NCBI GenBank assembly: GCA_041483895.1
Contig: JBGPGO010000024.1
Span: forward strand, 1-46,241
DNA: 46,241 bases
DNA from: Fimbriimonadia bacterium
Lineage (GTDB): Bacteria > Armatimonadota > Fimbriimonadia > Fimbriimonadales > JABRVX01
Direction: 5' to 3'
Shown piece by piece: positions 1 to 3,000 of this stretch. Within the stretch, counting starts at the first letter, position 1. Every line of letters starts with the position of its first letter. The position numbers were made by a program.

Positions 1-3000
1 CCGCAACGGACGGATTGTACGACATCTGGTTTTGCGCCAAACGGATCGGTCAGATTAATCTTAGAACGGACAAAAACCAGGACAATCATGTGTAAACCAT
101 GTCTCCGAACACCAGTAAACTATCTCCCCGGTCTAAACAGCTTGCGGGGGAGGGTTGGGGTGGGGGTCCGGTCACTTCCCAATCGGCACGGCCTTCCGAA
201 CCAGAGGGTGCTTGGCGATCGCAATGGCGTCGACCTCGGTCGATGAAGGGCCGAGGAAGCTGCCGGTGTTCAGCGCGTGGGTGATCCGCACGAAGTTGAC
301 GGCCGCGAGATGGACGGGTTGACCACTCATTTCATCCACCGCCCAGTCCAGGTCGATTGCGTCGCCGCCCGCGGAGCCGGGTGCGATGCCGGGCGTGTCC
401 GGGTCGGTCGGGATGAGCGGGTTGCCGGTGTTGTCGGTCGGCGAACAGTCCGCGTAGCCGCGCGTCAGACCTGGGTAGATCCCCCAGTAGGAGGACGGCA
501 ATGGGAAGGGCGGCGCGGGGTTGCCCAGGATCAAATACCACCTGTCGCCGGGACTTGGAACACCGTTGCCGTCAACATCCACACCGACCTCCACATAGCC
601 GGGTTCCCGCCAGATCGAATCCGGATCGCCGCCGACGTAAAAGGCGTTGCCGAAGATGATCAGATCGGGACCGGCGCCGTTCAGTACCGGCCTATCGAAG
701 CCGACGGTCACATATCCGCCCCAGCCGAAGGAGAACACCCCGCTATTGTCCGGCACGGTCGGCGTCGCGTTCGCGCCCGGGTAGCCAAGGACGTTGAGAG
801 GGTTCGCATATCCCGGCACGCCATTGATTGCGTTGTAGTCGAAGAGCTTCGTTGCGAAATCCGCCGGGCCGAAGATGCCTTGATACAGGATTGCGGCGAT
901 GAGCAGGTTCATTTTCGCCTCCTCGCCAAGAGAAGCGCGAGGCCGAAGGCGGTGAGGAACATTGGCTCCGGGACGGGTTGGATGGCGAATATCCCGCCGA
1001 CATTGGTGAATGCGCCGTTCACCACCAGCATCCCATCGCCGTCGCCAGGTTCGAACCGGTTGCCGTGATAGGCGAGGAAGGTGGGGAAGGGGAAGAAGCC
1101 GTCGAAGAAGCCAAAGTTGGACCCGTTCATCGTCAGCGTCGCGCCGGTCGTCGCGAACAGATCGCCCTCCGAGTCGAGCGCCAAGTCGACAAGGCCCGAA
1201 CCTCCGCCACCGGATAGGGATGATGTGCCGGCCGGACTGCCCGCGCTGTCCAACGAAAGCACCTGCCCGGGATTGCCGAGGAAGAACGGATCGTTGCTGT
1301 CGGCGACAAGCAGATGCCCGCCGCCAAACTCCAGCCCGCCGAGATAGCCGTTGCCGAGGCCGCCAGCGAAAAGCGTCGCCGCGCCGCCGGTGACGCGATA
1401 CACCGCGCCGGCGCCGGGATTGTTGGAGGCGGTGGCGAACAGGTCGCCGGAGAAGCCGACTCGCAGCCCGGCGATGTTCGGGATGGACCCAATGGGGGCG
1501 AGGCGCGAGGCGGTTGACAGAGTGGCGGAATAGGCGGTGTCCATGTCGCCGCTTTCGCCAATGGCCAGGGTGTCGTCGTCCAGCCACGTAAGGGCGCTGA
1601 TGAATTTCCACGTGTCGCCAATTGGGGAGTTGATGGTTCCGAGCAGGGTGCGGCCCAAGGGGACGCGGTCGTAGATTTGGATGGTTGCGCCGCCGCCGGG
1701 GCTATCCTGGGCGACGGCAAACTTTCCCGTTTGGGAGATGGCGATGGCGGACCCGGTGATGCCGAGATCGGTGGCCTCATAGCCCGCGATAGGGGTGAAT
1801 CCGACGAGGGCCCGCGAGCTCGCGCAAGCCAGGGCGGCGATGATTGCCGCGGTTGCTCTCACTTTCTGCGCTCCTTTTCGGCCTCTTGCCGGTCCGTGCC
1901 GGGGTCTCGGTTGCTGCCTGATGGTACGGGGTCGTTAGGAGTGAACCCCGGCACATCACGCGTTACCTTCTCCCTTCACAATCCCAATTGTGAAGGGGCG
2001 TGCGGCAGGCAGAAAAATGCCCCGACTCCTTCGAGTAGGGGATGACGATTTTCTCCCTTCACAATCCCTATTGTGAAGGGTCAGAAATTGTCAGTCCCCG
2101 GCTACTTCGAGCTCGGGGACGGAAATTGGTTCACCCTCTTAGGCTCGAAGAGGTTTGCGAAACCGGCTGCGTGGTTGGCGATCGGGCTTACGCGCTTTAG
2201 CGATTACCGTAGCGGCTCTGCGCCGGACTTTCACCGGACTTCCCCAGGGCCACGCATCTGGGCCTTATGTTGTTGTTGCGATGATCATAGCACAGATCAG
2301 TGTCAGGGTCTATGAAGTCGGCGGAGATATGATTTCAGCCGGCGAGGACCCTGACACATCTGGGAAGGCGGCGGATTGCGAGGATAAGGAAACCAGGGAT
2401 GGCGCAAACCGACGGTTCAGAGACGGGCGTAGAGAGGTAGATGGACCAGTCGCTGAGGTCAGACCGATTCGCGTAGCCCCAAAGAATCTGGCCGCGATTG
2501 TTCATATCGTAGATGTCCAACCGGCCGCCGGTAACCCCGAAGGACTGGCCGAATAGCTCTTGGGTGAGACTGTATCCGTCTGCATAGATGTTGTACTTGT
2601 TGAAGATCGGTCCCATCGCACCCATAAACGCAACGATGCCTGGATCGTTGATGTGGCCGTCCGCTACGGTCGTCTTCTCGCCGAGGACACCAACAGACAC
2701 GTTCGTCTGGTCGACATACATGTAGTTATATCCCGTTGTATCAGAGCCTAGCCAAATGACGTGCCCCATAGCGTTCATGTCCTGAACTTGCCCGAAGTTT
2801 ATGAGCCGATCCACGCCGACGGTCAGATCCACTCCGTTCTTATATGCCTTAGGGATACCGTTGGTGCCGTAGTTGTCGGCGCACCATGTGCCGTTGTCCG
2901 CGATCCGGCCGTTTCTGATGGTGCCGAAGCCGACGGAACCGTAGAGTTTCGTGCTGTCAAGAAATAAGCTCGCCCCTTGACCGCTCGTATCCGAACCAAA

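What a model noticed while it worked through the whole genome (the two positions that open the first line are those of the whole stretch)
172..2271. A cobalamin riboswitch missed by the standard scan controls a PEP-CTERM-anchored six-bladed beta-propeller protein and i [...]
A divergent AdoCbl/cobalamin riboswitch (C24:2,129-2,271, minus strand; below Rfam's gathering score, so absent from the RNA table) lies upstream of a two-gene operon for a secreted 317-aa protein with a PEP-CTERM exosortase anchor (g03264) and a 246-aa protein (g03263), both without family annotation. I read g03264 as a cell-surface cobalamin-capture protein, the functional counterpart of the Bacteroides propeller BtuG, in a B12-dependent organism that makes no corrinoids and has no TonB-dependent BtuB. 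New would be a B12-scavenging system built on exosortase-sorted surface proteins, the first ligand assigned to a PEP-CTERM protein, and a new B12 binder for the bench.
Evidence so far: Riboswitch: RF01482 AdoCbl 43.6 bits (gathering 50), E 7e-6, whole model 1-149 aligned; RF00174 27.2 bits in the genome-wide search. g03264 C24:909-1862 (-) starts about 267 nt downstream; signal peptide, C-terminal VPEP...RRRK. Orthologues of g03264 (42-61% id.) in 14 of 50 other Fimbriimonadales genomes sampled; 14 of 14 carry a cobalamin-clan riboswitch (RF00174, RF01482 or RF01689; 31.6-48.8 bits, 11 of 14 over gathering) directly upstream on the same strand; the g03263 orthologue (43-70% id.) follows in 9 of 14. 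36 homologues in 5.8 billion proteins, where named hypothetical or PEP-CTERM proteins, nearly all Armatimonadota. AlphaFold2 on 28 sequences: pLDDT 91.8, pTM 0.88, six-bladed pr [...]
(Added by a program. Inside this text positions count along the whole contig: contig position 1 is position 1 of the stretch shown here. "Call 12" and the like, gene names such as g00115 and contig names such as C1 are that model's own, and its searches are not shown. The text may have been shortened before it was handed on; [...] marks where a part breaks off. The agent that wrote the report below was given it as the finding of a first reader that could run no searches.)

Follow-up and report, generated by a model that had tools for sequence, protein, structure and literature searches.

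The report
B12-switched capture operon with pilin partner
A vitamin-B12-type RNA switch sits in front of a surface-anchor propeller protein and a relative of BtuH, the known B12-catching protein of gut Bacteroides; together with a pilin-like gene that likely follows across an assembly gap, they likely form a B12-scavenging system in a bacterium where no standard B12 outer-membrane importer was found.

Summary
The riboswitch (2271-2129, RF01482 43.6 bits, below gathering) precedes the propeller gene in 15 of 15 relatives. The operon likely has a third gene: a multi-copy 1.24-kb insertion sequence breaks the contig after g03263, and a specific pilin-like gene lies at the element's other end (C18); it follows directly in two close relatives. 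Riboswitch + propeller + BtuH-like + pilin recurs across Armatimonadota and Planctomycetota; some pilin-less loci carry a TonB receptor instead. The genome uses B12 and lacks CobS, TonB and TonB receptors. B12 binding by the propeller is unshown: it is six-bladed, with no match to BtuG. 'First ligand for a PEP-CTERM protein' is probably pre-empted by the B12-bound DUF4465 structure 9HMU, whose construct ends in V-P-E. I found no paper on the cassette; this scan noted it before on other DNA. Verdict: new variant of BtuH-type B12 capture, with a possible pilin-based import route.

The parts
2284..2312 (-). sigma-70-like promoter with extended -10 (inferred)
   Evidence: 9 of 12 matches, TG before -10; 2 sites found against 0.5 expected, so weak alone; similar hexamers at the same place in relatives
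2129..2271 (-). cobalamin (AdoCbl-type) riboswitch aptamer
   Evidence: core pairs 90.9% paired in 14 aligned copies with an A-U/U-A swap in 5 of 14; 15 of 15 orthologous loci
2055..2080 (.). first copy of a 26-nt palindromic repeat in the leader
   Evidence: 13 exact matches genome-wide; not seen in the printed leaders of the two closest relatives
2011..2040 (-). terminator-like hairpin plus U-rich tail, the likely expression platform
   Evidence: stem 2035-2021; 2 found against 1.7 expected, so not significant alone; hairpin plus T-run before the start codon in relatives' leaders
1972..1997 (.). second copy of the 26-nt palindromic repeat
909..1862 (-). g03264: predicted signal peptide, six-bladed beta-propeller, C-terminal PEP-CTERM sorting signal (974-909)
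   Evidence: 12 of 36 homologues carry PF07589
172..912 (-). g03263: stand-alone BtuH-like B12-binding domain with a very short N-terminal hydrophobic leader
140..166 (.). half of a genome-wide palindromic repeat, the insertion target, ending in a 5-bp direct repeat
   Evidence: 46 uninterrupted copies in the genome
1..139 (.). one end of a multi-copy 1.24-kb insertion sequence that breaks the contig; the other end begins contig C18 in front of the pilin-like gene (C18 about 160-977, +)
   Evidence: one 1240-1257-nt record at about five times the local depth covers window 1-139 and C18 1-94 in runs X1-X3

Best explanation
This is a cobalamin-riboswitch operon for a PEP-CTERM propeller and a BtuH homologue that likely captures vitamin B12 at the cell envelope, with the BtuH-like protein as the likely binder. 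Shown: riboswitch and its conserved place; both genes; homology and fold of g03263 to BtuH; six-bladed fold and sorting motif of g03264; exosortase, MetH, methylmalonyl-CoA mutase, PduO, BtuF-like and FecCD genes in the genome; no CobS, TonB or TonB receptor found (95% complete). Inferred: high intracellular cobamide would favour the leader terminator and shut the operon; under shortage the propeller is exported and anchored by the exosortase, the BtuH-like protein binds cobamide through its conserved phosphate-side pocket (about 70%), and the propeller serves as anchored partner or second site (own B12 binding about 40%). A specific pilin-like protein is the likely third gene (about 80%) and may carry the cobamide across the outer membrane through a pilus/secretin in place of BtuB (about 30%), to the BtuF-like/FecCD importer. 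In this strain the insertion sequence may uncouple the pilin from the switch.
For: g03263: phmmer E 2.4e-10 (8blw_B) and 1.2e-6 (7biz_A); family profile E 3e-26 and 2.8e-18; Foldseek top three are BtuG1/BtuH2; Z 17.4 (rmsd 3.8, 194 aligned) and 16.5 (rmsd 3.4, 183 aligned), next 9.0. BtuH2 Asn399 = N89 (48 of 48), Phe401 = F91 (41 of 48). Context: of 34 other phylum genomes with the domain, 27 have a riboswitch upstream, 5 are cut by a contig end, 2 have none; 30 of 34 have a PEP-type propeller in the cassette, 23 of 34 a pilin (the two propeller clades are homologous, hhalign 96.6% on trimmed cores). Fusions of propeller and BtuH-like domain: L017, L084, L093, P0134, P0100, L105. Outside the phylum 49 of 59 loci have the pilin, 12 of 16 scanned have the riboswitch; 4 of the 10 pilin-less loci have an adjacent TonB receptor whose best model, where tested (2), is BtuB. 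Pilins precede cobU/cobT/cobS in two loci checked; 37 of 40 further pilin loci have a riboswitch. CobS in 1 of 35 BtuH-bearing genomes against 72 of the other 366 (kin not independent), as reported for btuH (PMC8941943).
Against: No binding or expression data. The BtuH pocket is only partly kept: the loop with His476 is deleted, Gln333 appears not kept, Trp577 is mostly aliphatic in the family, and Tyr510/Trp511 have two possible registers. g03263 has no lipoprotein cysteine and a leader of about ten residues without positive charge, so its export is uncertain. In 6 of 15 order loci the riboswitch controls the propeller with no BtuH-like gene next to it (one of them at a contig end). The C24-C18 join is inferred: six contig ends of each kind carry the element, and no record spans it. 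28 of 47 cassette genomes do have a TonB receptor, whose best NCBIfam model in the two tested is also BtuB (below cut-off), though without riboswitch in 12 of 12 loci. Ten-odd pilins lie apart from the cassette, and 3 of 20 have no riboswitch.
Confidence: 0.62

Rival explanations
1. The propeller g03264 is itself the main B12 binder, a functional BtuG counterpart, and the BtuH-like protein is an optional helper.
For: Riboswitch controls the propeller alone in 6 of 15 loci; acidic core (24 D/E against 8 K/R) as on the BtuG binding face (PMC10404256 passages); invariant loop motifs; BtuG and BtuK1 are B12-binding propellers; distant homologues sit in a riboswitch-TonB receptor-BtuH operon of Bacteriovoracaceae (L230; E 1.8e-8 to the distant clade).
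Against: Six blades against seven; no PF16819 match; BtuK2 and BtuL lie in btu operons and do not bind B12 (PMC13616437); the L230 link is through the distant clade only (E 5.3 with the close clade).
Confidence: 0.2
2. The propeller is a metal-dependent hydrolase (lactonase/paraoxonase-like) that remodels corrinoids or releases them from carriers for the BtuH-like binder.
For: Fold matches include DFPase, gluconolactonases, strictosidine synthase at Z 20-24; invariant D188, N190, D191, D234, near-invariant E103, D230.
Against: These matches are tied with non-enzymatic NHL propellers (top Z 25.5, 10-17% identity); no SGL/NHL Pfam match; the invariant motif is not kept in the distant clade that fills the same gene slot.
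Confidence: 0.1
3. The cassette has drifted from B12 capture: the weak riboswitch and degenerate BtuH pocket serve another ligand (cobalt, cobinamide fragments, a carbohydrate), or the operon is decaying in this strain.
For: Below-threshold riboswitch; BtuH fold is CBM32-like; His476 loop lost; repeats in the leader and an insertion sequence after g03263.
Against: Both reading frames are intact and 60-69% identical to relatives; core riboswitch pairs are kept with compensation; the same genes sit behind high-scoring riboswitches (up to 126 bits) across the phylum.
Confidence: 0.08

Closest known systems
BtuH1/BtuH2 (BT1488/BT1956, PDB 7BIZ) and the H-domain of BtuG1 (PDB 8BLW) of Bacteroides thetaiotaomicron; PMC8941943 (parts 1-3 of 6 read), PMC10404256 (passages)
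   Same: Homologous domain and fold; Asn399/Phe401 kept; riboswitch control; stand-alone form like BtuH1; propeller-BtuH fusions as in BtuG1; enrichment in non-producers.
   Different: No lipoprotein anchor, no btuB in the operon or genome, His476 loop deleted, partner is a six-bladed PEP-CTERM propeller and a pilin-like protein; other phylum.
BtuG and BtuK1/BtuK2 propellers of B. thetaiotaomicron; PMC10404256 (passages), PMC13616437 (part 1 of 8 and passages)
   Same: Secreted propeller in a cobalamin-riboswitch operon; gene order riboswitch-btuK-btuH1 resembles riboswitch-propeller-BtuH-like.
   Different: Those are seven-bladed lipoproteins, BtuG caps BtuB; g03264 is six-bladed, exosortase-type anchored, with no detected sequence similarity.
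DUF4465/BtuJ proteins, including D5EK51 of Coraliomargarita akajimensis (PDB 9HMU); bioRxiv 10.1101/2025.08.21.671476 (parts 1-2 of 3 and term search)
   Same: Extracellular B12 binders outside Bacteroidota; a DUF4465-PEP-CTERM gene follows a BtuH-like gene behind a riboswitch in L190; the 9HMU chain ends in V-P-E where L190's PEP motif begins.
   Different: Jelly-roll fold, unrelated to g03264; absent from this genome; the paper's main text does not mention PEP-CTERM or exosortase.
Cobalamin riboswitch clan CL00101 (RF00174, RF01482, RF01689)
   Same: Whole-model alignment, conserved core, upstream position, terminator-like platform.
   Different: Short, divergent variant scoring under the gathering thresholds in this genome.

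Membership tests
Cobalamin riboswitch clan CL00101 | Score at or above Rfam gathering threshold | tested here: not met
   43.6 of 50 (RF01482); 27.2 of 31.5 (RF00174); 12 of 15 orthologous copies pass
Cobalamin riboswitch clan CL00101 | Conserved core helices and sequence, upstream of the regulated gene on the same strand | tested here: met
   E 6.8e-6, model 1-149; 9 of 11 named pairs without unpaired cells, one A-U/U-A swap (structure taken from the Rfam alignment); 15 of 15 loci
Cobalamin riboswitch clan CL00101 | Cobamide binding and regulation | not testable with these tools
   needs in-line probing or a reporter
BtuH domain (g03263) | Sequence homology over the C-terminal globular domain | tested here: met
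BtuH domain (g03263) | BtuH fold | tested here: met
   Z 17.4 and 16.5, chain range 315-592 of 7biz_A, next 9.0
BtuH domain (g03263) | B12-contact residues Q333, N399, F401, H476, Y510, W511, W577, L578 | tested here: inconclusive
   N399, F401, L578 kept; W577 to F; H476 loop deleted; Q333 apparently not kept; Y510/W511 register ambiguous (numbering offset of 100 inferred from the printed chain)
BtuH domain (g03263) | Surface lipoprotein encoded with btuB (property of the Bacteroides proteins) | tested here: not met
   no N-terminal cysteine; no TonB receptor found in the genome (95% complete)
BtuH domain (g03263) | Direct B12 binding | not testable with these tools
   no ligand docking or assay available
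BtuG (g03264) | Seven-bladed propeller | tested here: not met
   strand pattern of the model gives six blades; top matches six-bladed; BtuG2 seven-bladed
BtuG (g03264) | Sequence or fold similarity to BtuG/DUF5074 | tested here: inconclusive
   no Pfam match; not among the rows shown; unlisted is not excluded
BtuG (g03264) | Lipoprotein lid of a BtuB transporter | tested here: not met
   PEP-CTERM tail instead of lipid anchor; no PF00593 or PF03544 in the genome
PEP-CTERM/exosortase substrate (g03264) | N-terminal signal, C-terminal PEP motif, transmembrane helix, basic tail; exosortase in the genome | tested here: met
   exosortase C3, 156 bits; about 70 such tails by pattern. This copy is under the HMM cut-offs; 12 of 36 homologues carry PF07589. 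No signal-peptide predictor was available.
PEP-CTERM/exosortase substrate (g03264) | Processing and final location (periplasm or surface) | not testable with these tools
   surface location of PEP-CTERM proteins is recalled, from no call
SMP-30/gluconolactonase/paraoxonase six-bladed hydrolases (g03264) | Central calcium site with four conserved ligands | not tested

The most novel reading that the evidence does not exclude
A TonB-independent route for vitamin B12 uptake in diderm bacteria: exosortase-anchored propeller and BtuH-like proteins catch cobamide and hand it to a dedicated pilin-like subunit that brings it through a secretin by pilus retraction, replacing BtuB across Armatimonadota, Planctomycetota and neighbours; in some species propeller and BtuH are made as one polyprotein cut by exosortase and signal peptidase.
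Probability: 0.3. Interest if true: 0.88.

Novelty: new variant of a known kind. Interest (0 to 1): 0.67.

Why it matters
How diderm bacteria without TonB or BtuB take up B12 is open. This cassette extends BtuH-type capture, so far described in gut Bacteroidota, to environmental phyla, names two small soluble domains that can be tested for B12 binding by colour alone, and ties a large clade of unexplained pilin-like proteins to cobalamin riboswitches, which gives them a testable job.

Tried and rejected
Complex prediction of the BtuH-like domain with the propeller gave no answer, score 0.01; no evidence either way. No RNA holder was listed for the locus. No public-run record spanned the insertion or showed an empty site. 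Twenty weak-scoring pilins were meant as a negative control, but 20 of 20 had a cobalamin riboswitch: they belong to the same regulated group, so the control failed; the only negative control is within the genome (41 prepilin-like ORFs, one credible RF00174 hit). BtuG and BtuK were not among the rows shown in sequence or fold searches with the propeller, nor with the L230 PKD-propeller. The pilin domain has no match among solved structures. Atlas look-ups gave generic NHL-type propellers and unnamed prepilin-type clusters. A programmed frameshift fusing the two genes was considered because of the short leader; the junctions show ordinary ATGA/GTGA overlaps and no shared slippery site. Flanking genes of the order loci are not conserved. 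Literature searches with no paper on the cassette: PEP-CTERM + cobalamin (7 unrelated listings), Armatimonad + cobalamin riboswitch (1), DUF1559 + cobalamin (0), cobalamin riboswitch + prepilin (0), PEP-CTERM + vitamin B12 + riboswitch (0), BtuH + Planctomycet (1, the BtuJ1 preprint, listing only), (unrelated listings).
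Full report
Observation. RF00174 gives 27.2 bits and is the only credible one of three genome-wide matches; the others have E 0.37 and 0.87. A sigma-70-like promoter lies at 2312-2284 and a terminator-like hairpin at 2035-2021; neither scan is far above chance alone, but relatives show similar elements at the same places. Two ORFs follow with a 4-nt overlap: g03264 (1862-909, 317 aa) and g03263 (912-172, 246 aa). In 227 other genomes of the order the propeller occurs in 15 (families: 2/2, 0/20, 1/175, 11/29, 1/1). All 15 have a cobalamin-clan match upstream on the same strand, 12 over gathering, amid unrelated flanking genes. In 14 aligned copies the core pairs hold in 90.9% of cells, with an A-U/U-A swap in 5 of 14; slid controls give 22-45% (the structure came from the Rfam alignment, so this leans towards it).

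g03263 is a BtuH homologue. It has no Pfam or NCBIfam name, but matches 8blw_B (E 2.4e-10) and 7biz_A (E 1.2e-6); a 48-sequence profile gives 3e-26 and 2.8e-18. The model (pLDDT 90.5) finds the same chains first, at Z 17.4 (rmsd 3.8, 194 aligned) and 16.5 (rmsd 3.4, 183 aligned), next 9.0. 7BIZ is B12-bound BtuH2 and 8BLW_B is BtuG1, a propeller fused to a BtuH domain (PMC8941943, parts 1-3 of 6 read; PMC10404256, passages). Mapping the paper's contacts onto the printed chain (offset 100, which fits N399, F401, H476, Y510, W511, W577, L578): N399 = N89 (48 of 48), F401 = F91 (41 of 48), L578 = L220, W577 = F219 (mostly aliphatic in the family), H476 lies in a loop of about 48 residues that this family lacks, Q333 appears not kept, and Y510/W511 fall either on Y142/W143 or on Y153/A154. 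The paper names the phosphate-side pocket as the conserved surface, which is the part kept here. Its supplementary figures S3-S5 were not opened and bear on the metal ligands. g03263 lacks a lipoprotein cysteine and has a very short leader, as do its six closest relatives; 33 of 52 family members end in a dockerin-like repeat by pattern.

g03264 is a six-bladed propeller (pLDDT 93.1). Fold matches are generic: NHL domains, PknD, lactonases, Z 19-25.5 at 7-17% identity. It ends in VPEP, a hydrophobic helix and RRRK; the genome has one exosortase and about 70 such tails. BtuG is seven-bladed. In Bacteroides a riboswitch precedes btuK1-btuK2-btuH1; BtuK1 binds B12 and BtuK2 does not (PMC13616437, part 1 of 8 and passages), so regulation alone does not make a propeller a binder. 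For a role of its own: it stands behind the riboswitch with no adjacent BtuH-like gene in 6 of 15 loci, one at a contig end, it is acidic, and it is fused to the BtuH-like domain directly in P0100 and L105 and through PEP-CTERM plus signal peptide in L017, L084, L093 and P0134.

A third gene. Earlier notes of this scan pointed to a pilin partner, and I had seen a prepilin motif after the BtuH-like gene in one close relative. Both genomes of the same family have it there; its only close orthologue here (E 1e-110) starts contig C18. Window 1-139 and C18 1-94 are the two ends of a multi-copy element found at twelve contig ends, inserted in a palindromic repeat with a 5-bp direct repeat at these two flanks; one record of 1240-1257 nt covers both ends in the fitting orientation in three runs from sediment. 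The inward frame begins M-P-W, which I recall as IS481-like; not tested. The join rests on gene order in relatives, orientation and the direct repeat; other pairings of ends are possible. 14 of the 15 propeller genomes carry this pilin, 2 of them adjacent.

Wider range. In 400 other genomes of the phylum the BtuH-like domain occurs in 34: riboswitch upstream in 27, contig cut in 5, none in 2; a propeller in the cassette in 30 and a pilin in 23. The second propeller clade is homologous to g03264 (hhalign 99.1% whole, 96.6% trimmed). The pilin profile finds 94 of 401 genomes at E <= 1e-25, 50 at <= 1e-50 (7 candidates scored per genome); 17 of 20 strong and 20 of 20 weak further loci have a riboswitch, and two checked continue into cobU and cobT or cobS. 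A GTDB scan confirmed 247 stretches and kept 80 loci: 59 outside Armatimonadota, mostly Planctomycetota, also Hydrogenedentota, Spirochaetota, Bacteriovoracaceae, Omnitrophota, Victivallales; 49 have the pilin and 12 of 16 scanned have the riboswitch, three of the four misses lying near contig starts. Four of the ten pilin-less loci have an adjacent TonB receptor. I did not scan all genes of the 49 pilin loci for TonB receptors, so exclusivity is not established. A profile search of 1.84 billion representatives returned these two clades and many repeat-rich long proteins.

Genome. MetH over cut-off, methylmalonyl-CoA mutase with MeaB, a corrinoid methyltransferase set and a B12 radical-SAM protein; PduO; one BtuF-like and one FecCD gene, without riboswitch in their loci; BamA and three secretins. 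Not found: TonB receptor, TonB, CobS, DUF4465, CobT, CobU, BtuR by phmmer with E. coli proteins; completeness 95%. A MetE-like match exists (E 4.5e-22), so strict dependence is not shown. Other corrin-ring genes were not searched. Among 47 cassette-bearing relatives 28 have a TonB receptor; in the family where all 11 have one it lies beside a binding protein and a sensor kinase without riboswitch, yet its best model is BtuB, under cut-off.

Priority. In L190 a riboswitch precedes a BtuH-like gene and a DUF4465-PEP-CTERM gene. Its best solved match is 9HMU, B12-bound D5EK51, whose chain ends in V-P-E at the place of L190's PEP motif (bioRxiv 10.1101/2025.08.21.671476, parts 1-2 of 3). The main text does not mention PEP-CTERM; its supplements are closed. 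So a B12-binding PEP-CTERM protein probably exists in print unrecognised. Nine searches found no paper on this cassette; subscription journals are mostly outside the library. Eight earlier notes of this scan describe it on other DNA; they are not independent evidence.

Verdict. A real, divergent cobalamin riboswitch and a cassette that most likely captures cobamides: about 85% for acquisition, 70% for binding by g03263, 40% for binding by the propeller, 30% for pilin-mediated import. New variant of a known kind; interest 0.67.

Noticed in passing
window 1-166; G000 contig ends C1, C2, C5, C8, C9, C18, C26, C27, C28, C32: A 1.24-kb multi-copy insertion sequence with TGT termini sits, at every end seen, in the loop of the same palindromic repeat (46 uninterrupted copies), suggesting repeat-specific targeting; it accounts for twelve contig ends.
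   Followed up: partly
L017:1195-3387, L084:4550-6601, L093:2749-4617, P0134: Single reading frames propeller - PEP-CTERM - basic residues - signal peptide - BtuH-like (- second PEP-CTERM or dockerin-like tail): possible polyproteins cut by exosortase and signal peptidase, in three families.
   Followed up: partly
L149-L168: All 20 weak-scoring pilin loci sampled across Armatimonadota carry a cobalamin riboswitch: the regulated pilin group is much wider than the BtuH cassette.
   Followed up: partly
L141, L143: Riboswitch - pilin - cobU - cobT/cobS: the pilin heads a cobamide salvage operon.
   Followed up: partly
L230:1355-6912, L221: Bacteriovoracaceae: riboswitch - BtuB-like receptor - BtuH-like+PKD - PKD+propeller; the propeller is distantly related to the cassette's second clade.
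   Followed up: partly
L102:5335-5958, L100:454-1125: Small PEP-CTERM proteins of about 210-225 aa inside the riboswitch cassette, no Pfam match; candidates for further cobamide binders.
   Followed up: no
window 1972-1997 and 2055-2080: Two copies of a 26-nt palindrome (13 in the genome) flank the predicted terminator and lengthen the leader; effect on switching unknown.
   Followed up: partly
window 2335-3516 (-) and 6735-7463 (-): Two further secreted proteins with PEP-CTERM-like tails and no family; the first has a degenerate VSEP motif. Window 7778-9331 (-) is a flagellin-like ORF and 5110-6699 (-) a phenylacetate-CoA-ligase-like ORF (by eye, recalled).
   Followed up: no
L116-L126: A TonB receptor followed by an ABC-type binding protein and a Cache/HAMP sensor kinase in family f4 (two loci annotated); best model BtuB under cut-off, no riboswitch.
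   Followed up: partly
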